Below, one piece after another: positions 8,713-59,392 of a DNA stretch of 64,000 bases (its first letter is position 1; every line of letters begins with the position of its first letter). The notes below the pieces were generated by a model, which did no database searches, was not told the origin of the DNA, and saw only the letters and a program-made list of their open reading frames with translations. A program made the position numbers and the translations under genes. The DNA comes from Candidatus Multivoradales bacterium (GTDB taxonomy: Bacteria > Acidobacteriota > Thermoanaerobaculia > Multivoradales > J023), in the NCBI GenBank assembly GCA_965250305.1, contig CBDFNS010000017.1:52836-116835 (forward strand), read 5' to 3'.

Positions 8713-8713
8713 T

Positions 8714-39922: not shown

Positions 39923-39945
39923 GTGATTTGTGCGAGGAGGACCTG

Positions 39946-40269
39946 ATGCAGTCATTTTCTATTCGCGACCTTCGGCAACGCTCTGGCGATCTAGTTCGGG
40001 ACGCCGAAGGTGGCAAGCTCGCTCTGGTGACCAAGCACGGTCGACCGATTTTGGTCGCGGTTCCCATGAGTGAACAGCTCTTGGAATCGGGCGTTGCCCG
40101 AGCCTTGGCAATCAAGCTCTTCGAGGAGAGGGTGTTGGGCCTGGGCAAGGCTTCCCGTGTAGCGAGTCTCAGCATCGAGGCGTTTGTCGAGTTGCTGGCT
40201 ACCTCGGGAATTCCCGTAGTCGACTATTCGCCAGACGAGCTCGACGACGAGTTGGATGCATTCGGGTAG
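39946..40269 (+). CDS. antitoxin: Phd/YefM-like N-terminus fused to a UPF0175-like C-terminus
   Basis: GAGGAGG lies upstream of the ATG. The N-terminus is FSIRDLRQRSGDLVRDAEGGKLALVTKHGRPILVAVP (Phd-like). The C-terminus is LGKASRVASLSIEAFVELLATSGIP (UPF0175-like). Confidence 0.65.
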   Translation: MQSFSIRDLRQRSGDLVRDAEGGKLALVTKHGRPILVAVPMSEQLLESGVARALAIKLFEERVLGLGKASRVASLSIEAFVELLATSGIPVVDYSPDELDDELDAFG

Positions 40270-43286: not shown

Positions 43287-43377
43287 GCTTGGCTCCCAGG
43301 TGATGGGAGATGCGATTATGGCATGATTCTTACCTGGGCCTGTCAAGTGTCTCGGTTCGAAGCGAACTCCGACGCGC

Positions 43378-44946
43378 TCACTCCACGACGATGTCCCATG
43401 CTTGCAGGTCGCCGTTTTCGAACCCGTGCCCGAACCGCTGGCTCTCGACGATCGAGAGTCTTTCGTCCAGAGCCAGGCCACCAAGCACGCTTCGCAAGCC
43501 GCTGGGCCAGAAGATGTCGACGCGCGCGACGCTGGTAGCGGTCCCGAGGCCGAATTCCACGGCCGGGCTGTTAAACGAGCCGCGGCCCGCGCCGCCTTCG
43601 ACTTCCTTCACCGTCGTGCGAATGTCGGTGGTGACCTCGATGCGGGCGCCGATGGCGGTACGGTTGCTGAGTGTGCCGGTCAGCGCCAGGGTGAGCCAGT
43701 GGTTCTCGGTCGCCGTATCGTTGCGCCATAGCTTGGTCGGTGAACCTGCGGCGCCGGTAATGATGACGTCGAGGTCGCCGTCGCCATCGAAGTCGGCGAA
43801 AGCCACGCCACGGCTGTCGGCGGGTACGCCGCCAGAGAGCGCGCTCGTAACGTCGTTGAAGGTTCCGTCGGCGTCGTTTTGATACAAGACGCTGGGGGTG
43901 GTCGTAGGGTCGGCACCGTTGGAGATGAGGAAGTCGACCCAGCCATCGTTGTCGATGTCTCCGGCGTTGCAGCTAACACCCCAACCCAGTCGGTCTTCGG
44001 TGCCGCTTGCCGCCGTGGCGTCGGCGAACGTGATCGCTGCGCCTACGCCGCCTTGATTTTCGTACAACGCGTTGGCATCAGGGTTCATGGCGTCATTGGG
44101 CCAGGTGGTCCAGTACAGATCGAAGTCGAGGTCGTTGTCGTAGTCAAACGACAGGACCCCCATACCGAGACCTACTTTGGCGATTCCTGCGCTGGTGGTC
44201 ACGTCGGTGAAGGTGACCGCGCCTTCGGTGGCCGCGACGCCGTCGTTCATGAACAGGCGGTTGGGCACGAAGCTTCGATTGCCGGAGAAGAGGTCTGGCC
44301 AGCCGTCATTGTCCAGGTCGCTGGCCACCGTACCGACCCCTTGATTGTTCACCAGCAGTCCCGCTTCGAAGGTCACATTGTCGAAAGTCATGTTGCCCAA
44401 GTTGCGATAGAGGGTGTCCGGGCCACTCACGCTGATGAAAACATCGAGCCAACCGTCGCGATCGTAGTCCAGTAGGCTGACGCTACGGATCGAGGACTCT
44501 TGATCGAGATTGGCCATGCCGCCTACATCGACGAATGAGAACGAGGCGCCTGGCCCACTAGGGCCGAGGTTGCGGAGGAGCTGGTCTTTGATCGTGCCGC
44601 TGAAGGTGACCACGTATAGATCGAGCCAGCCGTCGTTGTCGAAGTCGCCCCAGGCGGCGCCGACATCTTGGTTTCCGGTACCACCGCTGTTGGTGGTGGT
44701 AGTGACATCCACGAAGGTGCCGTCGTCGTTGCGAAGGAGTTGGTTGTCGCCCGACACCGTGAGGTAGAGGTCGGGGTCGCCGTCATTGTCGTAGTCGCCC
44801 CAGGCGACCGACTCGATCAGCACCGACGCTTGCGACAACGCCTCTGGCGTAACGTCGGTGAAGAATGGTGTGGCCGCCAGGAGCGGCGCGACCGTGCAGG
44901 TTGACAGAACGGCGAGGACGAGGACCGGATGTGGCAAAACACGCAT
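43378..44946 (-). CDS. CRTAC1-family protein, paralog 2
   Basis: The architecture is the same as paralog 1. By eye it is about 80% nucleotide-identical to paralog 1 over long stretches. Confidence 0.85.
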   Translation of the reverse strand: MRVLPHPVLVLAVLSTCTVAPLLAATPFFTDVTPEALSQASVLIESVAWGDYDNDGDPDLYLTVSGDNQLLRNDDGTFVDVTTTTNSGGTGNQDVGAAWGDFDNDGWLDLYVVTFSGTIKDQLLRNLGPSGPGASFSFVDVGGMANLDQESSIRSVSLLDYDRDGWLDVFISVSGPDTLYRNLGNMTFDNVTFEAGLLVNNQGVGTVASDLDNDGWPDLFSGNRSFVPNRLFMNDGVAATEGAVTFTDVTTSAGIAKVGLGMGVLSFDYDNDLDFDLYWTTWPNDAMNPDANALYENQGGVGAAITFADATAASGTEDRLGWGVSCNAGDIDNDGWVDFLISNGADPTTTPSVLYQNDADGTFNDVTSALSGGVPADSRGVAFADFDGDGDLDVIITGAAGSPTKLWRNDTATENHWLTLALTGTLSNRTAIGARIEVTTDIRTTVKEVEGGAGRGSFNSPAVEFGLGTATSVARVDIFWPSGLRSVLGGLALDERLSIVESQRFGHGFENGDLQAWDIVVE

Positions 44947-45053
44947 CTTCCCTCCGTTGAAAGTCTCGGTGTCTTAGGAAAATGTGATTGTAGCATGTAT
45001 TTCGATCTAGAGAATCGAAGCATGTTCGAGAACGATCACCGCGGCTTTCGCCT

Positions 45054-46649
45054 TTAGGGACCGACCACGTCCCAGCCGCACAAACCGGCGGACTCGAAGC
45101 CGGTCACCAGCAGCGTGTCTTCGACGATGGTCACACCGTGGTCCATGACGCCGCCCACCCGCCAAGATGTACCACTACCAGGCCAGCGAACCGCAATCGA
45201 GCACAGTTCGGTCGCGTCTCCCAGGCCCATCTCTACCGGGAGGCTGTTGAACGACCCGCGACCCGCGCCACTGCTGACTTCCTTGGTGGTGGAGCGGAGG
45301 TTGGTTCGAACGTCCACGCGCGCGCCGATACCATTGCGATTGCTGGTGGTTCCGACTGTTTTGACCGTCAGCCAGTGGTTGCTGTTGACGGTGTCGTTGC
45401 GCCAGAAGCGGGTGTCGTCGGATGGCCCGCCAGTAACCACGAGGTCCACGTCGCCGTCGTCATCGAAATCCGCAAAAGCCACGCCACGGCCATCGAAGTC
45501 GGCGCCGCCTTCGAGCATGGCGGTCGCATCGGCGAAGGTGCCGTCGGCTTGGTTGTGGAAGAGGACGTTGTCGCTCGTACTGGCGTCGAAACCGTTGGTG
45601 ATGAAAAAGTCTTCCCAACCGTCGTTGTCCACATCGCCTGCATTACAGCTGATGCCCCAGCCGAGTGGGTCGGTCGTTCCCGATGCGACAGCAACATCGA
45701 CGAACAACAAGGCACCTTCAGCCTCTCGAGCGGCGCTCTGGTTCTCGTAGAGGGCGTTGGGCGTCGGGGTCATGCTGGAACCCGGCCAAGTCGTCCAATA
45801 AAGATCAAAGTCGAGATCGTTGTCATAGTCGAACGACAACACGCCCATGCCCAAACCCACCTTGTCGATTCCAGCCGACGCCGTGACGTCCGAGAACGTG
45901 GCTGTGATGTTGGTGTAAAGCCGGTTGGGATCACCGCTGCGATTGCCCGTAAAGAGATCAATCCAGCCGTTGCCGTCGAGGTCGGTGCCCACGGCGCCCA
46001 CGCCTTGGCCGGCGGTGGCGACACCGAGCATGCCTGCCACGTTGGTGAAGGTGAGGCTGCCGAGGTTGTGGTAGAGGATGTCGGGGCCGATCGCATTGAC
46101 GTAGATATCGAGTAGACCGTCATGGTCGTAGTCGAGCAACGCGACCCCACGGCTGCTCGACTCGTCGGTCGTTCCCGCGGCCATGGTGATATTCGTGAAG
46201 ACGTAGGTGCCGCCGGGACCACTCGGGCCGTCGTTGCGGTAGAGAACGTCGGGGCCGGTGCCGAACGAGACGACATAGAGGTCGAGGTCGCCATCGTTAT
46301 CGAGGTCGCCAAAGGCCGTACCGACGCTAAAGCCAGTGTCACCCACGCCCACAATGCCCGTGACGTCCGAGAACGTGCCGTCACCGTTGTTGCGGAACAA
46401 GTTGTTGGGGCCATTGCTGGTCAAGTAGAGGTCTTGGTCACCATCGTTGTCGTAGTCACCCCAGGCGGCAGATTCGGTTAGCGTTCCCGGTAGCGCCACG
46501 CCCGTTGTTGCGGTGATGTCGGTAAAGGTGAGCGTGCCTTCACCCGTTTCATTTTCCAGCGCGCTGCCAACAGCGACCCAGGCCCAACTCGCCGCGATGA
46601 CCACGACCGTCACGACCGTCACGACCCTAGGTGGTGTCCCGATTCGCAT
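45054..46649 (-). CDS. CRTAC1-family protein, paralog 3
   Basis: The architecture is the same but more diverged. The start was set at MRIGTPPRVV, before the hydrophobic signal segment. Confidence 0.8.
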   Translation of the reverse strand: MRIGTPPRVVTVVTVVVIAASWAWVAVGSALENETGEGTLTFTDITATTGVALPGTLTESAAWGDYDNDGDQDLYLTSNGPNNLFRNNGDGTFSDVTGIVGVGDTGFSVGTAFGDLDNDGDLDLYVVSFGTGPDVLYRNDGPSGPGGTYVFTNITMAAGTTDESSSRGVALLDYDHDGLLDIYVNAIGPDILYHNLGSLTFTNVAGMLGVATAGQGVGAVGTDLDGNGWIDLFTGNRSGDPNRLYTNITATFSDVTASAGIDKVGLGMGVLSFDYDNDLDFDLYWTTWPGSSMTPTPNALYENQSAAREAEGALLFVDVAVASGTTDPLGWGISCNAGDVDNDGWEDFFITNGFDASTSDNVLFHNQADGTFADATAMLEGGADFDGRGVAFADFDDDGDVDLVVTGGPSDDTRFWRNDTVNSNHWLTVKTVGTTSNRNGIGARVDVRTNLRSTTKEVSSGAGRGSFNSLPVEMGLGDATELCSIAVRWPGSGTSWRVGGVMDHGVTIVEDTLLVTGFESAGLCGWDVVGP

Positions 46650-46823
46650 GGTCCGTCTCCTGGGTCCGTCTCCAGAACGTGATGACGTGTGCGCATGGCC
46701 ACATTCGTTATGCCAGATTACCAGCACCAACAAGTGGGCGGAGTGAAATCAGTCGAACGTCGCGCAGCGGCGTGGTTCGCGTAGATGGGATGTTTGGCGG
46801 CCGCTGTTCGATCGAGTAACGTT

Positions 46824-47855
46824 ATGGAGAAAGGGCGAGGCGTGCGGCACGGCGCTCCTCGCGTGACCATGACCGAAGAACTCCAGCTATCCATCGTCAT
46901 CGGGCTCAACGCGGTGATCATCGCGGTTACCGATGAAGAGCCACGTCTCTTGACTGTGGTGCGCCGGATCGACACCACCGACGAAGATGCGGTGCCGTTC
47001 GGCCCTCTTGATCCGGGCCGCGATCGGACCCTCGAGTTGGCGCTCCGTGGCTGGGTCCGCGAACAAACCAGCCTCGAGCTTGGCTACGTGGAGCAGCTGT
47101 ATACCTTTGGCGACCGGCATCGTGATCCACGCGAACGGCGCGGCGGTCCCCGGGTTATTTCCATCGGCTATCTGACCTTGGCGCGCGAAGGATCGCGCGC
47201 TGCGGAGGCTGGTGCGCGTTGGCGCGGATGGTACGACTATTTGCCGTGGGAAGACTGGCGCCAAGGACGACCACCGATGCTCGACCGTACCGTGATCCCG
47301 GCGTTGGCTGATTGGGTGCGCGCGGCCGATGCGGACGCCGGGGAACGGCAGGAGCGACGAGAGCGGGTCGATATCGCGTTCGGGCGTCATGGCGCGTCGT
47401 GGGATGGCGACCGCGTGCTGCATCGTTACGAGCTTCTCTACGAAGCAGGGCTGGTCGCCGAGGCGCGTCGTGACGAGGTGCCAGCGTCTCAGCGTGCAGG
47501 GCTTCCGCAAGCGCGTCGGCTTGGGCGCCCCATGGCGTTCGATCATCGCCGGATCCTTGCCACGGCGGTCGGCCGCTTGCGGGGCAAGATCCGGTACCGA
47601 CCCGTGATCTTCGAACTGCTACCGCCCACGTTTACCTTGCTGCAATTGCAACGTGTCGTCGAAGCCCTCGCCGGCATGCCGCTGCACAAGCAGAACTTCC
47701 GGCGCTTGGTCGAACGCGGTGGCATGGTCGAAGGCACCGGCAACCTCGCAACCGGAACCGCTGGTCGTCCCGCTGAGTTGTTTCGCTACCGTCGCGAAGT
47801 TCTGCGTGAACGCCCGGCGCCGGGCGTTGGGCTGCCTGGGTTGCCGAAAGGGTAA
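46824..47855 (+). CDS. nrtR: NrtR-like Nudix-related transcriptional regulator
   Basis: The protein has a degenerate Nudix-fold N-terminus (GYVEQLYTFGDRHRDPRERRGGPRVISIGY). The C-terminal wHTH signature is MAFDHRRILATAVGRLRGKIRYRPVIFELLPPTFTLLQLQRVVEALAG...KQNFRR. The start is uncertain (46824 or 46869). Confidence 0.65.
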   Translation: MEKGRGVRHGAPRVTMTEELQLSIVIGLNAVIIAVTDEEPRLLTVVRRIDTTDEDAVPFGPLDPGRDRTLELALRGWVREQTSLELGYVEQLYTFGDRHRDPRERRGGPRVISIGYLTLAREGSRAAEAGARWRGWYDYLPWEDWRQGRPPMLDRTVIPALADWVRAADADAGERQERRERVDIAFGRHGASWDGDRVLHRYELLYEAGLVAEARRDEVPASQRAGLPQARRLGRPMAFDHRRILATAVGRLRGKIRYRPVIFELLPPTFTLLQLQRVVEALAGMPLHKQNFRRLVERGGMVEGTGNLATGTAGRPAELFRYRREVLRERPAPGVGLPGLPKG

Positions 47856-47866: not shown

Positions 47867-50248
47867 TTGACCATCTGGGGCCAGGTAATCAGTCATTTGG
47901 GTCGTCGGCGTGCCGCCACAGCCCTTGCTGTTGGCCTGCTGGCACTCGGGGTCGGGCTATCGGTCTCCTTCTTTAGCGTTCTCGACGGTGCATTGTTGGG
48001 CGGTCTTCCGTTCCCCGGTGGCGATCGTCTGGTTGCGTTCTCCACGCAGGACGCCGCGGGTTGGCCGATGCCCCTCGACGATTATCGAGAGATTGAAGCG
48101 GCCCAGTTGACCTTCGAGTGGACACTTCCGTTTCGTACGTTTAACACCATGGTGACCCGGGGCGATCGGACGAAGGGTGTGATTGGGGGCTACGTTCCAG
48201 CAGCTCTGTTTGAGCGACTCGGGGTCAAGCCGGTGATCGGCCGCGCCTTCACCGCCGAGGATGAAGATCCTGGAAGCCCACCGGTTGCATTGATTAGCCA
48301 TCGTCTGTGGCAGGCGAGCTACGGTGCCGACCCCGAAATCGTCGGTGAAGAGATCACACTCAATCGTGAACCAAGCGTGGTGGTAGGGGTGATGCCGCCT
48401 GGTTTTCGGTTTCCCCTTCGGCACGATGTTTGGGGTGTGTTCGGGCGGCACGGCCGTGAGTGGCAGGATTTCTTTGTTCTCGGCATGGGTAAGCTGGCTT
48501 CGGAGTCGACCTTGTCGCTCGCCAGAAAGGATCTTTCACGCATCGGGGCGATACTCGACGAGGCGCGGCCACGCCCCGAAGGGCGAACCCCGACCATCGA
48601 GTCGTTTGCCCGGGCCAACATCGGTGACCAAGCCCAAGGTGCGTTACGAGCGATGGTCTTCGCAGCACTCGGCCTCCTTGCCCTTGCCTGTGCGAACTTG
48701 GCCAACTTACGGTTGAGCGAGAGCCTGCGCCGGACCAGTGAGTTTGATACCCGCTTGGCGCTCGGCTCGGGACTACCCGGTCTCGTCAAGCTCTTGCTGT
48801 TGGAGAATCTGGTTCTCGGAATCGCCTCGGCAATGATGGGGCTCGTTCTTGCCTTCGTAGTGATTGAGACGTTGGGGCGGTCGCTGATTGCGGGCGGTTA
48901 TCTGGAACGTATTTTCTGGATCGATCCCCAGCTCGATCTAAGAGCGGCTAGCTTTGCCGTCGTTTGCGCGCTCGTCGCCGCGCAACTTGGAGCGCTTGCA
49001 CCCGTCTTAACGACGGTCTCGAGAATACGCGCCGGAGGCTTTGGTCGCGCCGGAGACTCCCGCACCCGAACCGCGGCCTGGTCTCGCAGTCTGGTAAGTC
49101 TCCAAGTCGGGCTTTGTTTCGCACTCCTGGTTGGCGCTGGACTGTGGAGCCTCAAGGCCTTCGAACTCATGCGGCGGGAACCTGGATTCAACCTGGAAAA
49201 TCTCTCCAGCGTTTCGCTGTCTGTGTACCAAGCTCAGTTGGACGAGCCGGAACAGCGGCGCGCTCTTTTCGAGCGTTTGAAGCGCGAGCTCGATGAGCAT
49301 CCAGGTGTCCTCGCCGCCGCCTATGCATCGTCATCACCTTGGGGATATGTTCCCGCGTTGCCAGTGGCCGGGGCGACTCGAGTACCGGATCGCAAAACGG
49401 CGCCGCGCGCCCAGGTCCTCGAAGTATCGTCGGATTTCTTTGCGACTCTGGAGCTAAACCTCCAGGCCGGGCGTGCGTTCGGTACGGCCGAGTCGAGCGA
49501 TAGCGAGGTCGCGATCGTCAGCCGCTCCTTGGCAGACCAGATGTTCCAAAAAGGCGCACTCGACCAAACGCTTACCATCGGCGGCAAGCGTTCCGATGAC
49601 CCAGTACGGCGTCCGCGCATCGTCGGTATCGCGGCTGACCTCGATGTGGGCCACAGTGCCGATCGGAATCGCAACCTGACGGTTTACTTACCAGCGGGGG
49701 TTCCCGAATTTGGCGCATTTGTGCTGATCCGCAGGCAGCAAGGCATGGCGTCCGCGCGTCCGCTCGTGGAAGGTGTCCTGGAGCGTGTCGCGCCATTGGT
49801 CGGTATCCTCGACGAGCTCAGCGTCGCCAAGTCGATGTCATCGAGCACCTGGGTCGAGCGCCGCCTCGGCCAGATCTTTTCCCTGTTCGCGATCGCCGCT
49901 TGGTTGCTGACGGTCGGCGGCATCTACGCGGTCATTGCGGTCATGGTGCGCAGCCGCGAGCGGGAGCTCGGTATTCGCGCGGCACTCGGCGCGAAGCCGA
50001 GCGACCTCCAGCGGCTCGTGCTGAATGAAAGTGGACGCCAACTGGCGTGCGGCATCGTGGTCGGATTTGGCTTGCTCTGGATTGGTGGGCGGGTCCTTGA
50101 CCGGGTCTTGGTCGAAGGCATTCAGATCCGGGTGGATGTTCTCGCCGTGTCAGCGGCGGTGGTGGCGCTTAGCGCTCTCGGCGGGAGCCTGGGCCCGACG
50201 CGGAAGGCCGCCCGCGCGGACCCAGCGCGGTGCTTGTCCGTGCGCTAA
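47867..50248 (+). CDS. duplicated FtsX/MacB-type permease (ADOP family)
   Basis: The ~790-aa protein has two MacB_PCD/FtsX halves. The C-terminal ELGIRAALGA...LGPTRKAARADP is typical. Confidence 0.8.
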   Translation: MTIWGQVISHLGRRRAATALAVGLLALGVGLSVSFFSVLDGALLGGLPFPGGDRLVAFSTQDAAGWPMPLDDYREIEAAQLTFEWTLPFRTFNTMVTRGDRTKGVIGGYVPAALFERLGVKPVIGRAFTAEDEDPGSPPVALISHRLWQASYGADPEIVGEEITLNREPSVVVGVMPPGFRFPLRHDVWGVFGRHGREWQDFFVLGMGKLASESTLSLARKDLSRIGAILDEARPRPEGRTPTIESFARANIGDQAQGALRAMVFAALGLLALACANLANLRLSESLRRTSEFDTRLALGSGLPGLVKLLLLENLVLGIASAMMGLVLAFVVIETLGRSLIAGGYLERIFWIDPQLDLRAASFAVVCALVAAQLGALAPVLTTVSRIRAGGFGRAGDSRTRTAAWSRSLVSLQVGLCFALLVGAGLWSLKAFELMRREPGFNLENLSSVSLSVYQAQLDEPEQRRALFERLKRELDEHPGVLAAAYASSSPWGYVPALPVAGATRVPDRKTAPRAQVLEVSSDFFATLELNLQAGRAFGTAESSDSEVAIVSRSLADQMFQKGALDQTLTIGGKRSDDPVRRPRIVGIAADLDVGHSADRNRNLTVYLPAGVPEFGAFVLIRRQQGMASARPLVEGVLERVAPLVGILDELSVAKSMSSSTWVERRLGQIFSLFAIAAWLLTVGGIYAVIAVMVRSRERELGIRAALGAKPSDLQRLVLNESGRQLACGIVVGFGLLWIGGRVLDRVLVEGIQIRVDVLAVSAAVVALSALGGSLGPTRKAARADPARCLSVR

Positions 50249-50283
50249 AGCCGGCCGAGCCGCACCTTCGAAACGAGCGCTTT

Positions 50284-50320
50284 GGCCTACCGACTCCGCG
50301 CAATGCGCATGGCGGTGTCG
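50284..50320. repeat. 37-bp direct repeat, copy 1: duplicate of the CBS-gene 3' end
   Basis: ggcctaccgactccgcgcaatgcgcatggcggtgtcg is compared with 53826-53862. The first 11 and last 20 nt are identical and the middle 6 nt are rearranged. Weaker similarity extends about 14 nt to the left. Confidence 0.85.
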
Positions 50321-50667
50321 TTTCGCTGCCGCAATGAAGTCCTGGGTGAGCGTCTCGTGACGGGCACCTAGCCCCAAAACCAGCGCATCTTGAAGGCGAT
50401 CTACACAAATCTCTTGGGTTCAATCACTTCCGAAAATGCTCAACGAACCTTCGGGTGCGCCTGCGCTTTTCGTAAGCACTTGAGCCTCAAGATCTTCGCG
50501 CATCTCATCCTTCGTATGCGCTTGTTTTAGGCCTAGCTGCCAGTGCCGAAAGGGGAGGGTGAGACTCGGCTCCGGCGTCGAGCAGCTCGGGTGCGCTCCG
50601 CACTTGCGTGTTGGTGCTGCCAGCTTGCTAGGATGAACTTCTCCGACAACCGGAGAGAGGGATTTGC

Positions 50668-51939
50668 ATGAGCTATACCGAGAGGGCCATTGCCGCTCTG
50701 CATGAGCTGGCGCTGTGCGCTGGATCGCTGGAGGCTGGCGCGCGCCGCGCGGGCTTCGCCAAGAGCTACCTGTCAACCTTACGCAAGCGCAAGAGCATGC
50801 CGTTGGGCACACTCGAGCGGTTCTTCGAGGCCTTTGGTGTTGACCCGGTGCGGTTTGTCGCCTGGGCTGAAGCGGGCGCCGTGCCTTCGTCCGTTGCACG
50901 CTTTGGCGCCGAGGCGCTCGACCTCGCCATCAAACATGGTGAGCCGGAGCCGGTTCGGCGGATCCGGCTGGCTTACTTGCGGGGTGAGTTGGCGGATGCT
51001 GCAACGGCCGATGAGATCACGACGATCGACGCCGCCGACGCGCTACGGGATCGCAATCCTCGGGAGTCGCTCGACGCGTCTCGGCCGCTAGCAGAGTCGG
51101 CTTCCAGCGTCGAGACAGCGGCCCGCGCTTTGGCGGTTTGGGGGTCGGCGCTGCGAGTTCGTCAAGACCTCGACAAGGCACAGATCGTGCTTTGGTCCGG
51201 TATCCGCCTGGCGTCAGCCATGGTCGACCACTTGACGATGGCAAACCTTGAGCAACGCGCTGCCTACGTGGCAATGAACCGTGGACGCTACGGCTTTGGG
51301 ATCGAATTGGCTGAATCCGCGGGACAGCGATGCGGTGATGTCGGAGAGTCGGACGGGCTGGGCCGGGCTCTCGTGGCACAGGCCATCATTCATCGCTACA
51401 AGGGATCTCCGAAACGAGCGACGAGTTGTTATCGCAGTGCGTTGCGGACATTGTCCGAGGGCTCGCGGACGCACCGCGCCACGGCATATCACGGTCTCAG
51501 CACCATGCTGCTCGAAGCCGGTGACCTGGAGTCAGCGGAGCATCTCGCAGAGCGTGCGACCGGCTTAGTGGACTCGACTACGGTGAACGGAGCACGTCTT
51601 TGTTGGCTTCAAGCACGAATCGCGTATTCGCGCGAAGAATTCGGGCGGTCGGTTTCTAAATATGAAGAAGCTGCGCTCGGCCTACGCCGGATCCCGGGTG
51701 ACGCTTGCTTGGTGACAGCCGAGTTAGTGCGTGTGTTGCTCGAATCAGGACGGGTCTTGGAAGCTCGTTCGATTGCTCAAGGGCTGGCCCCGATACTATT
51801 CAAACTGGACCGGACGGCAGCTGAGCGTGCTGGTGCACTGGACCTCTGGCGAGCGGCCCAGGAAGCCGAGACCTTCACGAATTCGAGAGTCAAGACAGCT
51901 CTTCAAAGCATGATTCGGCGAGGCATTCGATCGTCTTGA
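50668..51939 (+). CDS. XRE-type HTH protein with a TPR-like helical-repeat C-terminal region
   Basis: The N-terminus is AGFAKSYLSTLRKRKSMPLGTLERFFEAFGVDP (HTH). The remainder is all-helical with TPR-like Ala/Leu periodicity. Confidence 0.6.
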   Translation: MSYTERAIAALHELALCAGSLEAGARRAGFAKSYLSTLRKRKSMPLGTLERFFEAFGVDPVRFVAWAEAGAVPSSVARFGAEALDLAIKHGEPEPVRRIRLAYLRGELADAATADEITTIDAADALRDRNPRESLDASRPLAESASSVETAARALAVWGSALRVRQDLDKAQIVLWSGIRLASAMVDHLTMANLEQRAAYVAMNRGRYGFGIELAESAGQRCGDVGESDGLGRALVAQAIIHRYKGSPKRATSCYRSALRTLSEGSRTHRATAYHGLSTMLLEAGDLESAEHLAERATGLVDSTTVNGARLCWLQARIAYSREEFGRSVSKYEEAALGLRRIPGDACLVTAELVRVLLESGRVLEARSIAQGLAPILFKLDRTAAERAGALDLWRAAQEAETFTNSRVKTALQSMIRRGIRSS

Positions 51940-51948
51940 ATGGGAGGC

Positions 51949-52251
51949 TTAACCTCCCGGCTCCATCTGGTCGCCAGCCTTGTTGAGTCCCTGGTTGGAC
52001 CGGGCTCCGCACTCGGCACCGCCTTCCGTCGGTTCGTCGAGTTGCCTATTGTTGGTGGTCCCATTGTCGCTATTGCGGTCGACTCTTTGACCAGCCGTCC
52101 AGCTCCAGTCAGATACCTGGGCGACCAATGTACTAATGGTCAGCCTTAGCTGAGTCCGCCACGAAGCATGGCGACTTTTGGAGGCATTCGCGGGCAGAGT
52201 TAGGCTGCCCAGCAGTACTGCGAGTACAACGATTCGGCTTGAACGTTCCAT
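51949..52251 (-). CDS. small secreted hypothetical protein (~100 aa)
   Basis: MERSSRIVVLAVLLGSLTLPANA is a signal-like peptide. The rest is hydrophilic and low in complexity. Coding status is uncertain. Confidence 0.35.
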   Translation of the reverse strand: MERSSRIVVLAVLLGSLTLPANASKSRHASWRTQLRLTISTLVAQVSDWSWTAGQRVDRNSDNGTTNNRQLDEPTEGGAECGARSNQGLNKAGDQMEPGG

Positions 52252-52488
52252 CAGCGGCTCTCCTCTCCAGGCGCGGCTGCACACCTGGGGCGGCATTGCC
52301 TTGGCGCGGCACGCGTCTCGACCTGGTTCACAGATTGTGAACCACAAATGATCTTGGCTCAAATCGAGGTTGCTGTGATAACGAGGCGTGATCGTCGGTT
52401 CACAGATCGTGACCCGGGTCCGTCGGCCGTAGATCGAGGAGTCGCCAGCGCTACGCTTCGCGAATTACGAATGGAGAAAGGAGATCGG

Positions 52489-53478
52489 ATGACCCGTGAA
52501 GGAACCCGCTCCGTCGGCAAGAGCTCGCAGGCGATCGAGCCGTCGACCCTCGCTTGGCTACTGTCGGCCGCGAGCGACACAGGCGCGATCAGGCGGCGTG
52601 ACATTCAACGCGCGCTCGATGCCATGATCGCTGCCCATCTGCCGGTCCGTCAGGCCCACCAACAGCTGAGCCGGCTGGCCGCCGACGCAGGCTTCGAAGG
52701 CGCTGATCCGACCGCCGTGTGCTTCGTTCATCGCGAGTACGAGCAACTGGTTGAGCTCGGTGAGCGTTCCGGCTGGTGCTGCGCTGCAGCGCTGGTCGAT
52801 CCCGATGGCGCGAACGGCGCCCACCTTGGGCCGTATCTGAGGATTGCCGAGGCCCGCGTTGAACGGGGTGAAGCTGGTGGTCCACCCCAGGTTGTCTCAT
52901 GGCTCACCACAGCCAACGCTGCGGAAGACCTCGCCGAGGGTCGCACCCTACGCGTCGACCGCCAACTCCAGCGTTGGCCGTTCAACGCCACCGGCGCCAT
53001 GGATCGAGCGAGTGGAGACCTGCCGATGGTGCTCGGCAGCCTGTCGCAACTGGAGCTGTGTTTCCGTGCGGAAATGGCACGGACTGGTCGGGCGCTTTCC
53101 CAGACACCTGACGATCTACGTGACGCGTTCCGCCGGCTCTTGCGTCTGGCCAAGGAAGTACGTGAGGTGTCGCTCCGCATGAGCGGTCTCGTTTTGGCCG
53201 GTCTCGCGCGCCTCTTGCTCGTCCACGCTCGAGTGCGTGGCCATGCTCTCCCAGGCCGTGAGGGTGCTGCGCCTAAAACGGTCGCACGGTTGATGTTGGC
53301 GAACGCGGAACGCACATTGCAGAGCTCCAATCGGGCAACGTCGATCGATCACCAAGGTCTGGCAGGCGTTAACGTCGCCATCGTCACATCCAATGCGGAA
53401 ACCGTCGCCACGCTCGATAGACGGGATAGCCGTCGAATCCAACGTTCCGCAGTCGGAGCAGTCGCGTCCGGAGGATGA
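52489..53478 (+). CDS. hypothetical protein (no recognisable motif)
   Basis: AAAGGAGA lies 5 nt upstream of the ATG at 52489. The ORF is 329 aa and is followed by an 11-bp perfect hairpin. Confidence 0.55.
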   Translation: MTREGTRSVGKSSQAIEPSTLAWLLSAASDTGAIRRRDIQRALDAMIAAHLPVRQAHQQLSRLAADAGFEGADPTAVCFVHREYEQLVELGERSGWCCAAALVDPDGANGAHLGPYLRIAEARVERGEAGGPPQVVSWLTTANAAEDLAEGRTLRVDRQLQRWPFNATGAMDRASGDLPMVLGSLSQLELCFRAEMARTGRALSQTPDDLRDAFRRLLRLAKEVREVSLRMSGLVLAGLARLLLVHARVRGHALPGREGAAPKTVARLMLANAERTLQSSNRATSIDHQGLAGVNVAIVTSNAETVATLDRRDSRRIQRSAVGAVASGG

Positions 53479-53481
53479 ACA

Positions 53482-53511
53482 CTCGTCATCACATGGCCAG
53501 GTGATGACGAG
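53482..53511 (+). terminator. perfect 11-bp stem hairpin after the hypothetical gene
   Basis: ctcgtcatcac-atggccag-gtgatgacgag starts 3 nt after the stop codon. There is no U-tract, so its function as an intrinsic terminator is uncertain. Confidence 0.4.
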
Positions 53512-53825
53512 ATTTGGTAAGAGAAGTTCAGCTTGCGTACCGCATCGAGGATCGAGACTCCACGCTCTTTGATCCGATCAAAGCTGTTGAGTCAGAAACC
53601 GACGATCTTCCTCTCGGCGAATCTCGGTTGTACTGGTCCGAAGACGCGTTGAAGGACGCGGCCGTTCGCCGCCTATGTTCCCGACATCCGACCGCAGGTC
53701 TTGGAAGCCTGTACTGAGCTTCTTCTGAAATATTCCAGCGCAACAGACTGACCTGTCGGACCGAATGTTCCGACGGCGCCCCGAGATCCAACTCTCCCTC
53801 GATCGAATCAGCCAACGCGCGAGAA

Positions 53826-53862
53826 GGCCTACCGACCGCGAGCAATGCGCATGGCGGTGTCG
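53826..53862. repeat. 37-bp direct repeat, copy 2 (functional 3' end of the CBS gene)
   Basis: See 50284-50320. This copy encodes ...DTAMRIARGR-stop, whereas copy 1 would encode DTAMRIARSR-stop. Confidence 0.85.
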
Positions 53863-54320
53863 ACGCCCATGCCCTCTGCCGGTGGCTCGACAGCGATCTC
53901 TTGTGAGCCGTAGAGGTAGCTGTTTTCACGCATTTTGGTAATGCCGACCAAGACGTCCCGACGGCTGATCTGGCCGACCACATGGTGATGCTCATCGACC
54001 ACGGGCAGACGCCGATAGGGCATGCTTTGGAAGCGTGCCACGACATCGTAGACCGCCGTATCGGGCGTGACGGTTTGGACCGCGGTGGTCATGTAGTCGC
54101 CAACCTTGCCTTCGGGTAGCCCGTCGAAGGCTTCGGCGGTCATCACTTTGAGGCAGTCCTTTTCGGACAGGATGCCGATCAGACGACCCTCGCTATCGAC
54201 TACCGGCGCGCCGGAGAAGTGTTTGGTGATCAAGGTTTGCATCGCTGTATAGATGTCGGTCTCGGCGGAAAGACTGACGACCGAGCGGGTCATGATGTCG
54301 GCGGCGGTACGGATTGGCAT
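53829..54320 (-). CDS. CBS-pair domain protein
   Basis: AAAGGAGAAGG lies upstream of the ATG at 54320. Two CBS motifs are present (IMTRSVVSL...GAPVVD, and YMTTAVQTV...RRLPVVD). Confidence 0.85.
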   Translation of the reverse strand: MPIRTAADIMTRSVVSLSAETDIYTAMQTLITKHFSGAPVVDSEGRLIGILSEKDCLKVMTAEAFDGLPEGKVGDYMTTAVQTVTPDTAVYDVVARFQSMPYRRLPVVDEHHHVVGQISRRDVLVGITKMRENSYLYGSQEIAVEPPAEGMGVDTAMRIARGR

Positions 54321-55727: not shown

Positions 55728-55758
55728 TAGTTAAGCAAACAGCGTGAAGGAGCCACTG

Positions 55759-56826
55759 ATGACCTCACTCGCAATCAAGTCTTGGCCGTCCGAGCAACCT
55801 CTTGCGTTTACGCCCGAAGTCGCTGCCGCAACGGCGACGATCTACGACCGGGTTCGCGACGTGATTCCGGCGTTGGAGTGGCCGGTGCATGCGCCGTACA
55901 TCGACGCAATCAATCGGCTCAAGCGCGAGCGCAACGCCATCGTGTTGGCCCACAACTACCAGACACCGGAGATTTTCCACGGCGTGGCCGACTTGACCGG
56001 GGATTCACTGGCCTTGGCGCAGCAAGCGGTGGATGCGGAAGCGGATGTGATCGTGCTTTGCGGCGTCCACTTCATGGCCGAGACCGCCAAGTTGCTGAAT
56101 CCCGCCAAGACGGTGTTGATACCCGACCTGCGCGCGGGGTGCTCTTTGGCAGAGTCGATCACCGGTGACGATGTCCGCCTGCTGCGCCAGAAGTATCCGG
56201 GTGTACCCGTCGTTAGCTACGTCAATACCTCCGCCGACGTGAAGGCCGAGACCGATGTTTGCTGTACCTCAGGCAACGCGGTGGAGGTGGTGGAGTCCCT
56301 GGGTACCGATCGCGTGATCTTCCTGCCGGATGAGTACCTTGGTCAGTACGTGGCCCAGCACACCGATGTCGAGCTGATTCTCTGGAAGGGTCATTGCGAG
56401 GTGCACGAGCGTTTCAACGCGCCGCAGATTCGCAGCTACCGCGACAGCCATCCTGGCATTACGGTCTTGGCGCACCCGGAGTGTCCACCGGACGTGCTGG
56501 CGGAGGCCGATTTCGTGGGCTCGACGGCGGGCATGATCAACCATGTGGGCGACAGTGGCGCCAGCAAGGTCATCATGATCACCGAGTGTTCGATGAGCGA
56601 TAACGTGGCCGTGGCCCATCCCGGTGTCGAGTTCATCCGGCCGTGCAATCTCTGTCCACACATGAAGCAGATCACGCTGCCGAAGATTCTGCGTACGCTA
56701 CAAACGATGGAGCATGCCGTCGAGGTGGATCCGGCCTTGATGGACAAGGCGCGGTTGTCGGTGGAGCGCATGCTGGCGGTCGGTCGGGGTCCCACGGGCG
56801 AGACGGCCATGCGGGGCGCGGCGTGA
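55759..56826 (+). CDS. nadA: quinolinate synthase
   Basis: GAAGGAG lies upstream of the ATG. Motifs are ILAHNYQ, FMAETAK, CPHMK. Confidence 0.95.
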
Positions 56827-58505
56827 GCGGTCTCCGGGCGTTGCCGGTCGGCCCACGGGTCGATGAGGTGATCGCCACCGACGTGGTGATCGTCGGGTCT
56901 GGTGTTGCCGGCCTGAGCACGGCGTTGGCGCTCGGCTCCCATTCGGTACAGGTGCTGACCAAGACCGATAGCCTTGCCGGCGGGTCGAGTCTGTGGGCCC
57001 AGGGCGGTATCGCTGCGGCCATGAGCGAGGAAGACTCGGCGGCCGAACACGCGGCCGACACGCTCGCTGCGGGCGCTGGCTTGAGCGACCCTGACGCCGT
57101 TGATCTGTTGACCCGGAGTGCGGGTCGTCACATTCTTCAGCTGGTGGCACGCGGAGCGCGGTTCGATCATGACGACGCCGGGCGTCTGATTCTGGGGCGG
57201 GAAGGTGCACACAGTCACCGCAGGATTCTTCATGCCAACGGTGACGCCACGGGTGCCGAGATGGTGCGAGCGTTGGTCGCGGCGTTGGTCGCGGAAAAGG
57301 AAGCGCGAGAGGACGGTAGCTTGCGGGTGTTCAAGAGCGCGTTCGCCCAGGATTTGGTACTCGACGACGCGGGGCACGTGACGGGCGTCATGGCGCGTCA
57401 TTCAGACGGACGGCTGGTATTGCATGCAGCATCGGCGGTGGTGCTGGCCACGGGTGGAACGGGGCAGCTCTTTAGGCACACGACCAATCCCACCGAGGCG
57501 ACCGGTGATGGTCTGGCGATGGCCGCGCGCGCAGGCGCTCACCTTGCCGATCTGCCCTTCATTCAGTTTCATCCCACGGCGCTCAACGTCGAAGCCGATC
57601 CGCTGCCGCTTCTGACGGAGGCCTTGCGCGGTGAGGGCGCAATCTTGATTGACGACGCCGGGGAGCGGTTCATGCTGGCCGAGCACCCGCTGGCCGAGCT
57701 TGCGCCGCGCGACGTGGTGGCGCGGGCAATTTGGCGTCGGCAGCAGCAAGGCCAACACATCGCGTTGGATGCCACCAAGGCGGTCGGCGAGGCCTTCCCC
57801 ACCCGGTTTCCCACGGTTTGGGCGGCATGCCGGCGGCACGGTATCGACCCTCGGCACGAGCCCATGCCGGTCACCCCGGCCGCGCACTACGCCATGGCCG
57901 GTATCGCCACCGACGATCTTGGTCGGTCGTCGCTACCCGGTCTTTGGGCCTGCGGTGAGGTGTCGGCGACGGGCGTTCACGGGGCCAATCGGCTGGCCAG
58001 CAATTCACTGCTCGAAGCTCTTGTGTTTGGCGCCCGTGTAGCCGAGGATATTGCAGTGCAGGCATCGGCCGATCTCCAAGGTGAGGTCGCCATGACGGTG
58101 CGCGCCCGTGCCGGGCTGGTACGTCGAGAGCCTTGGCTCGGGGAGTCGACGCCGGAGCATCTTGCCGATCTGCATGAACGTGTGCGTACGTTGATGTGGC
58201 GCCAGGTGGGGCTCGAGCGGACCCGGTCCGGTTTGGTGTCGGCCGAAGCGTGGCTCGCGGGCATGGCAGAGCAGCTGCCGGCCGAGCCGAGTGCCACCCA
58301 CAACCTGATTACGATCGGCCGACTCGTCGCAGCGGGCGCTTTGGTCCGGGAAGAAAGTCGGGGCGCGCATTGCCGACTCGACCATCCGCAAAGCCGGCCC
58401 GCGGCCGCCCAACGATCGTTTTGGAAGTATGCCCCTGAGAGTGAGGGCCTGCCGCTGGTACCAGCGCTCGGTGTTCGGTGTGAGACGCAAAGGGAGATTG
58501 CCTGA
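56823..58505 (+). CDS. nadB: L-aspartate oxidase
   Basis: The GTG start overlaps the nadA TGA. The FAD motif is [12 protein letters not shown], and FHPT and RGEGA motifs are also present. Confidence 0.9.
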
Positions 58506-59392
58506 TGACGACCGATCAAGCGGAAACGACGATTCCTACGCTGTTTCCGGTCCAATACGAAGAGCTGCTCCTGGCCGCCCTGCGCGAAGATCTGGGGCGC
58601 GCGGGCGACATTACCAGCAACGCGGTGGTACCGGCCGGCGCTCGCGCCACTGGGGCGATCCGGGCGCGTCGTGCCGGTCGCGTCGCGGGGGTTGAGGTCG
58701 CGGCACGCGTCTTCTCCCTGCTCGACCCCAACGCGACCGTGGTGATCACCGCGCCGGATGGGGCCGATGTCGGCGTCGGCGCGACGATCTTGACCGTCGA
58801 GGGCGATGCGAGGGCGCTGCTCGCGGCCGAGCGAACGGCCCTCAACCTGCTCGGCAGGCTGTGCGGCATTGCCACGACGACCCGCGACCTGGTGGCGAAG
58901 ATCGCGGGGACCGGCGCGCGGGTGGTGGGTACCCGCAAGACGACACCCCTACTGCGCGCGCTCGAGAAACATGCGGTGCGCTGCGGCGGTGGCTCGAGTC
59001 ACCGCTTTGGGCTCGACGACGCGGTATTGATCAAAGACAACCATCGGGCCCTGGCCGGCAGCGCCGCCGAGGCCGTACGTCGGGCTAAGGCAGCAGTCGG
59101 TCACATGGTCAAGATCGAAGTCGAGATCGACAGCCTGGCCGAATTGGCACCAGCGCTCGAGATGGGTGTCGATGCGGTGTTGCTCGACAACATGAACCCC
59201 GACCAACTACGCGAGGCTGTTGCGATCAACAAGGCCGTGGGCGGCGGTCGCACCATCCTCGAAGCCTCTGGCGGCATTACCCCCGACACCGCCCGCGCCA
59301 TGGCCGAGACCGGTGTCGATGTGCTGTCGCTCGGTTGGCTCACCCACAGCGCGCCTGGGCTCGACATCGGTTTAGACTTCGACGCGGGGTAG
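58505..59392 (+). CDS. nadC: nicotinate-nucleotide diphosphorylase (carboxylating)
   Basis: The start forms an ATGA overlap with nadB. Motifs are TRKTTPLLRALEKHAVRCGGG and IEASGGIT. Confidence 0.9.
   Translation: MTTDQAETTIPTLFPVQYEELLLAALREDLGRAGDITSNAVVPAGARATGAIRARRAGRVAGVEVAARVFSLLDPNATVVITAPDGADVGVGATILTVEGDARALLAAERTALNLLGRLCGIATTTRDLVAKIAGTGARVVGTRKTTPLLRALEKHAVRCGGGSSHRFGLDDAVLIKDNHRALAGSAAEAVRRAKAAVGHMVKIEVEIDSLAELAPALEMGVDAVLLDNMNPDQLREAVAINKAVGGGRTILEASGGITPDTARAMAETGVDVLSLGWLTHSAPGLDIGLDFDAG

What the first reader, a model, noticed from the sequence alone, without database searches (positions are those of the whole stretch)
50270..53862. 3.5-kb islet bounded by a direct duplication of the 3' end of the CBS-domain gene (att-like repeats) with no recombinase
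The last 10 codons, the stop codon and 3 nt of the CBS gene (53826-53862) are duplicated 3.5 kb away at 50284-50320. The copies share 31 of 37 identical positions, and weaker similarity extends about 14 nt further. Copy 1 would still read DTAMRIARSR-stop but is attached to nothing upstream. This is the classic footprint of site-specific integration into the 3' end of a gene, where the incoming element rebuilds the gene end. The enclosed DNA holds three genes with no housekeeping flavour: an HTH-TPR protein, a ~100-aa secreted protein on the opposite strand and a 329-aa protein with no recognisable motif. It also has an 11-bp perfect hairpin and about 350 nt of non-coding DNA. No integrase, transposase or tRNA is present. 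The islet is either a stranded remnant or is mobilised in trans. Without the islet, the permease gene and the CBS gene would be convergent neighbours.
Basis: seen in the sequence. Interest (0 to 1): 0.65.

Follow-up and report, generated by a model that had tools for sequence, protein, structure and literature searches.

The report
Recombinase-less islet at CBS gene end
A 3.5-kb block of three lineage-specific genes sits between two copies of the last ~49 bases of a CBS-domain gene, which is the scar an integrated element leaves in a gene's 3' end; it carries no recombinase and mobility could not be tested, so it is most likely an ordinary stranded remnant.

Summary
The repeat is real and better than reported: 34/37 identical (41/49 over 50272-50320 vs 53814-53862). 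It includes an exact 21-mer found only at these two places in the 64-kb window. Copy 1 is an orphan tail (…NDTAMRIARSR*). Similarity stops abruptly on the gene-body side, and all mismatches lie on the stop-codon/UTR side. This fits a single crossover between the chromosomal gene end and a circular DNA carrying a mimic of it.

No recombinase is present. The 329-aa protein models as an all-helical repeat protein with no structural match. No integrase remnant was detected in either 347-nt arm. The only transposases in the window are an IS1380-family and an IS110-family gene, 30-43 kb away.

The islet genes have almost no relatives in more than 5 billion proteins. Composition is host-like. No close relative exists (best CBS homolog 67%, different context), so no empty site could be found. 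Read-derived contigs show no excision joint.

It is a high-copy hairpin that shares terminal repeats with the IS1380-family element in this window. Short-read contigs break inside it.

A second ~49-nt direct-repeat pair bounds a 2.4-kb ECF-sigma cassette at 1926-4417.

Verdict: a CIME-like decayed integrative islet, plausible but unproven, of modest interest.

The parts
50272..50320 (-). Direct repeat copy 1 (attL-like). It is an orphan copy of the last 10 codons, the stop codon (50287-50289) and about 15 nt of 3' UTR of the CBS gene. It lies 24 nt beyond the permease stop codon.
   Evidence: It matches copy 2 at 41/49 positions and holds an exact 21-mer at 50300-50320. It reads NDTAMRIARSR* with no upstream ORF.
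53814..53862 (-). Direct repeat copy 2 (attR-like). It is the functional 3' end of the CBS gene (…DTAMRIARGR*, stop at 53829-53831) plus about 15 nt of 3' UTR.
   Evidence: It holds the exact 21-mer at 53842-53862. Similarity to copy 1 stops at 53862.
50368..50536 (-). MITE: a 169-nt imperfect palindrome bounded by CTAG. It is multi-copy in the source metagenome and shares terminal inverted repeats with the IS1380-family element at 6910-8717.
   Evidence: Word depth reaches about 575-1300 against 3-4 for the flanks, with many different flanking sequences. The minus strand folds at -98 kcal/mol with z = -8.9; the plus strand folds at -70.9. The ends match the IS left terminal repeat at 18/22 and 20/22. 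There is no Rfam hit.
50668..51939 (+). Cargo gene 1: a 423-aa protein with a weak XRE-type HTH match (below Pfam threshold) plus TPR repeats, read as a putative regulator.
   Evidence: Pfam gives TPR_12 at 6.6e-8, TPR_MalT at 3e-5 and HTH_26 at 0.017. Only one remote relative exists among 5.8 billion proteins.
51949..52254 (-). Cargo gene 2: a 101-aa protein with an N-terminal signal peptide and a GGAGAGGAG ribosome-binding site.
   Evidence: No family match. A p329 homolog in L085 is also preceded by a divergent signal-peptide gene.
52325..52415 (.). Two operator-like palindromes in the divergent promoter region between cargo genes 2 and 3: GGTTCACAGATTGTGAACC (52325-52343) and GGTTCACAGATCGTGACCC (52397-52415), 72 nt apart.
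   Evidence: (D9, I2). Exact matches to the motif occur only here in the window.
52489..53478 (+). Cargo gene 3 (p329): a 329-aa all-helical repeat protein of a very rare family. It does not have a recombinase fold.
   Evidence: Five remote homologs exist among 1.84 billion representatives. The AlphaFold2 model built on a 6-sequence alignment has pLDDT 79.6 and pTM 0.75 and is all helices. The best Foldseek PDB match has E = 0.37. No family or PDB sequence match.
53482..53511 (+). Terminator-like hairpin just after p329 (11-bp perfect stem, 8-nt loop).
   Evidence: (I20).
53512..53813 (.). Right non-coding arm, with lower G+C (about 0.56). In an integrated element this is where an integrase gene would be expected next to the rebuilt gene end.
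   Evidence: One search gives the G+C. Six-frame peptides match no Pfam family. Folding is unremarkable (z about -1).
53829..54320 (-). Target gene: a 163-aa CBS-pair protein downstream of aroC. Its C-terminal tail GVDxAMRxARGR is conserved across the family.
47867..50248 (+). Left flank: an intact ADOP-family duplicated permease. Without the islet it would converge on the CBS gene with 38 nt between the stop codons.
   Evidence: Pfam finds MacB_PCD and FtsX. NCBIfam TIGR03434 ADOP matches at 3.9e-149, which is below that model's curated cut-off.

Best explanation
The 3.5-kb segment entered by a single reciprocal crossover. One partner was the 3' end of the chromosomal CBS gene (attB). The other was a circular DNA whose attachment site carried a 49-nt mimic of that gene end: the last 10 codons, the stop codon and about 15 nt of UTR.

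The crossover fell inside the 21-nt block that is now identical in both copies. Under this reading the gene today ends in an element-borne tail (…ARGR*). The native tail (…ARSR*) with its UTR was pushed 3.5 kb away, next to the permease gene.

The most likely catalyst was a site-specific (tyrosine-type) integrase. Its gene has since been deleted or was never on this element. What remains is an att-flanked, recombinase-less islet, that is, a CIME-like remnant.

Its cargo looks like one regulatory unit:
- a putative HTH-TPR regulator;
- a small secreted protein;
- a helical-repeat protein;
- a divergent promoter carrying two palindromic operator-like sites.

Later, or already in the donor, an IS1380-type MITE landed in the left arm.

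**Shown:** the repeats, their mismatch geometry, the orphan tail, the absence of a recombinase, the rarity of the cargo genes and the identity of the MITE.

**Inferred:** the circular intermediate, the recombinase, which tail is native and the loss of the integrase.
For: **Repeat**
- The repeat is non-random and unique in the window.
- Similarity stops abruptly at 50320/53862. All 8 mismatches lie on the stop-codon/UTR side of a perfect 21-mer. A run this long has P of about 0.06 if the mismatches were scattered at random.
- Two of the three coding differences are synonymous. The third gives RSR, a tail seen in a natural homolog. This suggests both tails evolved as coding sequence.
- Copy 1 has no gene body, and nothing CBS-like remains in the left arm.
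- No relative duplicates its own CBS tail.

**Cargo**
- The cargo genes are nearly orphans.
- They still look like a functional pair. A p329 homolog in L087 is also preceded by an HTH+TPR regulator, and one in L085 by a divergent signal-peptide gene.

**Assembly and literature**
- Both junctions are reproduced in independent short-read contigs.
- Integration into the 3' end of housekeeping genes, with one flanking repeat rebuilding the gene end, is well described. So is decay to att-flanked elements without integrase (CIMEs) (PMC5704250).
Against: - No integrase, excisionase, relaxase or detectable remnant lies in the islet or in either 347-nt arm. The only transposases in the 64-kb window are an IS1380-family and an IS110-family gene far away.
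- There is no empty site and no related element anywhere.
- The sample's contigs show no excision or circle joint.
- The tetranucleotide signature is host-like (r = 0.923 against a window mean of 0.935, 17th percentile). GC3 is only slightly lower than in neighbouring genes.
- The repeats are not identical.
- The link between the permease-plus-copy-1 contig and the rest of the islet crosses a multi-copy MITE where short-read contigs break. It therefore rests on the window's assembly alone.
Confidence: 0.5

Rival explanations
1. Local rearrangement with no mobile element. An older CBS gene copy once converged on the permease gene. The gene was duplicated or relocated 3.5 kb away, and the old copy was deleted down to its last 34 nt plus UTR.
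For: - The CBS gene sits in a different neighbourhood in every relative examined, so it does move around.
- The same window shows deletion scars elsewhere: a truncated hydrolase abutting an orphan C-terminal fragment of a sulfatase-like gene.
- The islet's composition is host-like.
Against: - It needs at least two events and offers no mechanism for the 3.5-kb displacement.
- No CBS-like coding remnant lies beyond 50320.
- The deletion end would have to coincide with the edge of a perfect 21-mer.
- The cargo genes have almost no relatives, unlike the surrounding housekeeping genes.
Confidence: 0.2
2. A Campbell-type insertion of a circular DNA by general (RecA) homologous recombination across a roughly 20-50-bp patch of homology. 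No dedicated integrase would be needed and the final structure would be the same.
For: - The geometry matches that of the best explanation.
- No recombinase is present.
- A second islet in the window (1926-4417) is bounded by a 48/49-identical direct repeat and also lacks a recombinase.
Against: A 21-nt stretch of perfect identity is at the lower limit for RecA-mediated exchange (general knowledge, not tested here). It also leaves unexplained why the incoming DNA carried a copy of exactly the gene's end, which is the hallmark of an evolved attachment site.
Confidence: 0.15
3. Assembly artefact. Two different copies of the multi-copy MITE were joined, so copy 1 and the islet are not actually adjacent.
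For: Short-read contigs from four runs all break inside 50395-50509. Contig word depth over the MITE is more than 100 times the flank depth.
Against: - Depths of the two flanking contigs agree (2.8-4.4 against 3.7-4.2).
- The window comes from a 367,853-nt contig. That contig length suggests, but does not prove, an assembly able to span a 170-nt repeat.
- Even if the join were wrong, an orphan CBS tail next to the permease gene would still need explaining.
Confidence: 0.07
4. Chance or convergent similarity, driven by selection on the conserved C-terminal peptide.
For: The peptide GVDxAMRxARGR is conserved family-wide. The window also holds a few chance 18-mer repeats.
Against: - Copy 1 is not in a gene, so no selection could act on it.
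- The match is 21 nt exact plus 11 nt exact, with similarity continuing past the stop codon.
- Only 0.01 hits are expected by chance.
Confidence: 0.02

Closest known systems
CIMEs (cis-mobilizable elements), such as those derived from ICESt1/ICESt3-type elements; definition in PMC5704250
   Same: Flanked by attL- and attR-like direct repeats. Carries no integration or transfer genes. Sits at the 3' end of a protein-coding gene, and one repeat rebuilds the gene end.
   Different: No parent ICE or IME with the same attachment site is known. No second element lies in tandem. Mobility is untested. The host is an uncultivated marine-sediment Acidobacteriota (Vicinamibacteria-like) lineage, not a Firmicute. 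The repeats are 84% identical, not identical.
IMEs, genomic islands and prophages that integrate via tyrosine recombinases into the 3' end of housekeeping genes (rpsI, rpmG, rplL, trmE, yicC; Table 1 of PMC5704250)
   Same: The target is a gene's 3' end. One direct repeat contains the gene end, so the gene is not disrupted. The element is small and carries accessory cargo.
   Different: There is no integrase, excisionase, relaxase or oriT. A CBS-pair gene has not, to my knowledge, been described as a target (not checked exhaustively).
Bacterial MITEs derived from IS elements (reviewed in PMC3184786); applies to the hairpin at 50368-50536
   Same: Short (169 nt) and non-coding. It has terminal inverted repeats matching a resident IS (IS1380 family), the same tetranucleotide (CTAG) at both ends and a high copy number. 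It folds into a long hairpin.
   Different: The hairpin is strongly strand-asymmetric: the minus-strand fold has 8 G·U pairs and many G·A mismatches in its internal loops, often as adjacent pairs. Its apical 86 nt are the part conserved in other marine-sediment metagenomes. Neither feature is explained.
RNPP-type receptor/peptide pairs (PlcR-PapR, NprR-NprX, AimR-AimP); a functional analogy for the cargo only, drawn from my own knowledge
   Same: A protein with TPR repeats and a weak, sub-threshold XRE-type HTH match is encoded beside a small secreted protein.
   Different: No sequence membership was found. The small gene is convergent and encodes 101 aa. In the relatives' loci the small gene travels with p329 rather than with the regulator. 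The host phylum differs.

Membership tests
Site-specifically integrated element (prophage/ICE/IME type) | [quoted passage not shown] | tested here: met
Site-specifically integrated element (prophage/ICE/IME type) | Element-encoded tyrosine or serine recombinase next to an att site | tested here: not met
   No Pfam, PHROG, PADLOC or NCBIfam hit in the three genes or in the six-frame peptides of both arms. p329 has an all-helical fold with no structural match.
Site-specifically integrated element (prophage/ICE/IME type) | An empty attB in relatives, or excised attP/attB junctions in reads | tested here: inconclusive
   The closest CBS homolog is 67% identical and not syntenic. The genome is present in one sample only. 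No joints appear in its contigs, but contigs drop rare variants.
Site-specifically integrated element (prophage/ICE/IME type) | Composition or codon usage distinct from the host | tested here: not met
   Tetranucleotide r = 0.923 against a mean of 0.935. GC3 is 0.62-0.67 against 0.69-0.79 in neighbours. This feature is supportive rather than obligatory.
CIME (cis-mobilizable element) | [quoted passage not shown] | tested here: met
   The repeats are present and no mobility genes are found. That the repeats are true att sites is inferred.
CIME (cis-mobilizable element) | Derived from, or mobilisable by, an ICE or IME that uses the same att site | not testable with these tools
   The 21-mer core gave no hit in IMG/VR. 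The islet gave none in the phage or plasmid collections. The rest of the genome is not available.
MITE (for 50368-50536) | Terminal inverted repeats shared with an autonomous IS | tested here: met
   The ends match the left terminal repeat of the IS at 6910-8717 at 18/22 and 20/22. Its transposase is IS1380 family (224.5 bits against a cut-off of 180).
MITE (for 50368-50536) | Small, non-coding and present in many copies with different flanks | tested here: met
   Length is 169 nt. Summed contig word depth over the element is more than 100 times that of the flanks, with heterogeneous loose ends at 50366-50369 and 50536-50541. Its words occur in many marine-sediment runs.
MITE (for 50368-50536) | Target-site duplication | tested here: inconclusive
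   CTAG occurs at both ends of the MITE and of the IS. With one copy in hand I cannot separate a duplication from the first bases of the terminal repeat.
Integron attC site / known structured RNA (considered for the hairpin) | Match to an Rfam family, or attC-like R''/R' motifs within an array | tested here: not met
   No Rfam hit at E<=1. There is a single copy in 64 kb. By inspection there is no GTTRRRY/RYYYAAC motif at the ends.
RNPP-type HTH-TPR receptor (considered for cargo gene 1) | Sequence membership in a described RNPP family, plus a cognate propeptide gene | tested here: not met
   Only generic TPR hits and a weak HTH_26 hit. Nothing in NCBIfam.

The most novel reading that the evidence does not exclude
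The islet is one of a class of small, recombinase-less regulatory cassettes in these marine Acidobacteriota. Such cassettes would insert next to or into gene 3' ends by a single crossover over roughly 50-bp attachment sequences and be moved in trans by a recombinase encoded elsewhere. The same 64-kb window holds a second such unit: a 2.4-kb ECF-sigma cassette bounded by a 48/49-identical 49-nt direct repeat, lying beside the 3' end of a sulfatase-like gene and carrying an orphan copy of that gene's C-terminal domain.
Probability: 0.1. Interest if true: 0.6.

Novelty: new member of a known kind. Interest (0 to 1): 0.3.

Why it matters
If the reading is right, this is a first sketch of how accessory regulatory modules enter genomes of an uncultivated, poorly known marine-sediment Acidobacteriota lineage. 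It would also name a CBS-pair gene as an integration target. The practical value is modest:
- It marks the three genes as accessory rather than core.
- It marks the CBS C-terminus as possibly element-derived.
- It flags a high-copy IS1380-type MITE that breaks short-read assemblies of these organisms.

A second direct-repeat-bounded, recombinase-less cassette in the same window suggests the process may recur. That is the only part that could become more than routine.

Tried and rejected
**Empty-site search**
- CBS homologs in 5.8 billion proteins reach at most 67% identity.
- 80 GTDB loci reach at most 59% identity, and none has aroC or the ADOP permease within 10 kb.
- The neighbourhoods of the 66%-identical homologs are nqr…CBS-apbE, or a PLP-dependent enzyme gene followed by CBS and a tricorn-like protease gene.

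**Exact look-ups**
- The window's own CBS and p329 proteins are not on record.

**Excision evidence**
- Only one sample holds the genome and no RNA runs exist. Its contigs show no joints.

**Relatives of the islet**
- Nothing was found for the 21-mer core in IMG/VR or for the islet DNA in the plasmid and phage collections.
- The p329 family has no relative in JGI metagenomes, IMG/VR or plasmids.

**Function of the cargo**
- Pfam, PHROGs, PADLOC, NCBIfam and PDB sequence searches gave nothing beyond TPR and a weak HTH hit.
- The single-sequence AlphaFold2 model of p329 was useless (pLDDT 38). The model from a 6-sequence alignment was good but had no Foldseek match.

**Hairpin**
- I first considered a structured RNA or an attC site. 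Rfam was negative, and the match to the IS terminal repeats settled it as a MITE.
- Exact-pattern scans for more copies in JGI metagenomes and IMG/VR failed. The one hit was a chance match.

**One-ended IS1380 (ISEcp1-style) capture of the islet**
- Rejected. No terminal-repeat-like sequence lies near the right end. The MITE also sits 47 nt inside copy 1, not flush with it.

**Xer/dif-type (IMEX) insertion**
- Rejected by inspection. The repeat lies inside a gene end and has no recognisable XerD arm. This was not formally tested.

**Apparent chimeric CBS proteins**
- P0105, P0113 and P0120 turned out to be frameshifted assemblies.

Full report
**Observation.** The duplication exists as described, but the numbers needed correcting. 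50284-50320 and 53826-53862 share 34 of 37 positions, not 31. The gap-free match runs over 49 nt (50272-50320 vs 53814-53862, 41/49). The exact 21-mer GCAATGCGCATGGCGGTGTCG occurs only at these two places in the window, even when 3 mismatches are allowed; 0.01 hits are expected by chance. The window also holds three chance 18-mer pairs, but none has flanking similarity. On the minus strand copy 1 reads NDTAMRIARSR-stop. It has an in-frame stop 27 codons upstream and no start, so it is attached to nothing. Copy 2 is the live tail of a 163-aa CBS-pair gene. There is no tRNA in the window.

**Anatomy.** The layout from left to right is:
- ADOP-family duplicated permease, 47867-50248 (+);
- 23 nt of spacer;
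- repeat copy 1;
- a 347-nt non-coding arm containing a 169-nt hairpin element (50368-50536);
- HTH-TPR protein, 50668-51939 (+);
- 101-aa signal-peptide protein, 51949-52254 (-);
- a 234-nt divergent promoter region with two operator-like palindromes (52325-52343 and 52397-52415), found only here in the window;
- the 329-aa protein p329, 52489-53478 (+), followed by an 11-bp-stem terminator-like hairpin;
- a second 347-nt non-coding arm with lower G+C;
- repeat copy 2 and the CBS gene, 53829-54320 (-);
- aroC (assigned from the translated sequence; not scanned against a family library), then nadA and nadB (likewise) and nadC.

The host is an Acidobacteriota, Vicinamibacteria-like.

**Geometry of the repeat.** Similarity ends abruptly at 50320/53862, on the gene-body side of copy 2 and the islet-interior side of copy 1. 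All 8 mismatches lie on the other side of the perfect 21-mer. Three fall in the last four codons (GCG/GCT and CGG/CGC are synonymous; AGT/GGT gives Ser/Gly). Five fall in the 12 nt at the far end of the repeat, 3 nt beyond the stop codon. A perfect run this long has P of about 0.06 if the mismatches were placed at random.

The C-terminal peptide GVDxAMRxARGR is conserved across the family, and one natural homolog ends in …RIARSR. Both tails therefore look like sequences that evolved as coding ends of CBS genes. This is the pattern expected when an attachment site carries a diverged copy of the target gene's end and the crossover falls in the shared block. It is not what post-insertion decay of an originally identical target duplication would give.

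**Tests against relatives.**
- None of 29 loci holding related CBS genes has a second copy of its own tail within 10 kb. The repeat is not a standing feature of this gene.
- The nearest homolog is only 67% identical.
- GTDB representatives reach at most 59% identity, and none has aroC or an ADOP gene nearby.
- The 66% homologs sit between the nqr operon and apbE, or between a PLP-dependent enzyme gene and a tricorn-like protease gene.
- An empty site therefore cannot be looked for with the available data.
- The genome occurs in one sample only. Its read-derived contigs reproduce both junctions without a mismatch but show no joint that skips or circularises the islet. Contigs drop rare variants, so this says little about low-frequency excision.

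**No recombinase.**
- The three proteins and every six-frame peptide of 50 aa or more from the two arm regions match no integrase, transposase or other mobility family.
- p329 has five remote homologs among 1.84 billion representatives.
- A model built on their alignment is confident (pLDDT 79.6, pTM 0.75) and entirely helical. Its best PDB match has E = 0.37, to helical-repeat proteins. It is not a recombinase fold.
- The ORFs I scanned in the rest of the window are mostly housekeeping or uncharacterised genes. The exceptions are an IS1380-family transposase (7008-8693) and an IS110-family transposase (19980-21011), both far from the islet.

**Is the DNA foreign?**
- The HTH-TPR protein has a single remote relative among 5.8 billion proteins (27% identity, E = 8.7e-5). 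p329 had none in that word-based search.
- Nothing similar was found in the plasmid, phage, IMG/VR or JGI collections.
- That marks the genes as accessory. Composition, however, is host-like: tetranucleotide correlation is 0.923 against a window mean of 0.935, and GC3 is slightly low.
- So the acquisition is either old, came from a close relative, or never happened.

**The cargo looks like one functional unit.** In L087 a p329 homolog directly follows a different HTH+TPR protein (AraC-type HTH). In L085 a homolog is preceded by a divergent signal-peptide gene, as in the window. In L089 a homolog is cut by an IS. My reading is inferred, not tested: the HTH-TPR protein acts on the two palindromes to control the small secreted protein and p329.

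**The hairpin in the left arm is a MITE.**
- Contigs from the sample pile up on 50366-50541 at word depths of about 575-1300, against 3-4 for the flanks. Their flanking sequences differ from contig to contig.
- The element is a long imperfect palindrome. The minus strand folds at -98 kcal/mol (z = -8.9) and the plus strand at -70.9.
- Variants among copies are almost all transitions; the only exception is a three-base change in the apical loop. Three base pairs vary on both sides in a compensating way.
- Rfam has no match.
- Its ends (CTAG+CCCCAAAACCAGCGCAT and CTAG+GCCTAAAACAAGCGCAT) match the left terminal repeat of the 1.8-kb IS at 6910-8717 at 18/22 and 20/22. That IS is also bounded by CTAG and encodes an IS1380-family transposase.
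- Words of the element occur in many marine-sediment metagenomes, where the apical 86 nt are the best conserved part.
- The MITE is an independent insertion. It sits 47 nt inside copy 1, and no terminal-repeat-like sequence lies at the other end of the islet. It therefore did not carry the islet.
- It does create a caveat. Short-read contigs break inside it, so the link between the permease-plus-copy-1 segment and the rest of the islet rests on the window's assembly alone.

**A parallel elsewhere in the window.**
- 1926-1974 and 4369-4417 are a 49-nt direct repeat, 48/49 identical. An independent 9.3-kb contig confirms it.
- It bounds 2.4 kb holding an ECF sigma factor gene, two unknown ORFs, a truncated alpha/beta-hydrolase ORF (3692-4111), and an orphan copy of the C-terminal domain of the adjacent sulfatase-like gene (48% identity over 89 aa; E = 6e-29).
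- It also has no recombinase.
- It cuts both ways. It shows that deletion scars and orphan gene ends occur here without any visible mobile element. It also hints that cassettes bounded by direct repeats and lacking a recombinase may recur in this genome.

**Mechanism and rivals.** I put 0.5 on a single-crossover insertion at the CBS gene end, most likely by a site-specific integrase that is now absent. [quoted passage not shown] The same review documents integration into the 3' ends of housekeeping genes, with one repeat rebuilding the gene end. The rivals are:
- local duplication or relocation followed by deletion (0.2);
- RecA-mediated Campbell-type insertion over the short homology (0.15);
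- a misjoin at the MITE (0.07);
- chance (0.02).

**Novelty.** This is a known kind of structure in a new host and at a new target gene. Its interpretation is the best available but remains unproven, and nothing points to present-day mobility. The interest is modest. The one lead that could raise it is the possible recurrence of direct-repeat-bounded, recombinase-less regulatory cassettes in this genome.

Noticed in passing
window 1926-1974 and 4369-4417 (unit 1926-4417): A second 49-nt direct repeat (48/49 identical), with copies 2.44 kb apart. It bounds an ECF sigma gene (1969-2772), two unknown ORFs, a truncated alpha/beta-hydrolase ORF (3692-4111), and an orphan copy (4097-4420, minus strand) of the C-terminal domain of the adjacent sulfatase-like gene (4426-6903). 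That orphan copy is 48% identical over 89 aa. No recombinase is present. An independent contig confirms the structure.
   Followed up: partly
window 6910-8717: A ~1.8-kb IS bounded by CTAG with imperfect terminal inverted repeats. It encodes a 561-aa IS1380-family transposase, sits 7 nt upstream of the sulfatase-like gene's start codon, and resembles the parent of the MITE at 50368-50536.
   Followed up: yes
window 50368-50536: The MITE hairpin is strongly strand-asymmetric. The minus-strand fold has 8 G·U pairs and ten G·A mismatches in its internal loops, often as adjacent pairs and apparently at roughly 10-nt spacing (read from the mismatch list). The window's copy has T at 50419 where every other copy in the sample has C. 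The reason for the asymmetry is unexplained.
   Followed up: partly
window 19980-21011: An IS110-family (RNA-guided) transposase gene, scoring below NCBIfam's curated cut-off (112.6 against 140 bits). Its ends and any bridge RNA were not examined.
   Followed up: no
window 52325-52343 and 52397-52415: Two copies of a palindromic operator-like site (GGTTCACA-N3-TGTGAACC) 72 nt apart, in the divergent promoter between the small secreted protein gene and p329.
   Followed up: partly
window 46785-47855 and 55744-59392: An NrtR-type regulator gene (Nudix-related NAD regulator) lies 8 kb from nadA-nadB-nadC. The ADOP permease, the islet, the CBS gene and aroC separate them, which suggests the interval has grown by insertions.
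   Followed up: no
window 41697-46733: Three tandem paralogous FG-GAP/ASPIC (UnbV) repeat protein genes, 56-58% identical to each other.
   Followed up: no
window 39898-40759: A putative toxin-antitoxin pair: a UPF0175/Phd-like antitoxin followed by a DUF3368 protein. A separate PIN-domain gene lies at 23936-24409.
   Followed up: no
window 59562-63048: A 708-aa TPR protein whose gene contains a 123-nt internal DNA repeat with several exact 18-mers, followed by a gene for an AAA_22 ATPase. This is the compositional outlier of the window.
   Followed up: no
L023 (same contig as L006, Vicinamibacterales MAG CBDANA010000009.1): A second, shortened copy of the CBS gene on the same contig as the full-length one. 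It aligns over 106 aa and keeps an intact GVDSAMRRARDR tail.
   Followed up: no
L089 45-2396: A p329-family gene truncated by insertion of an IS encoding a DDE_Tnp_1 (IS4-type) transposase.
   Followed up: no
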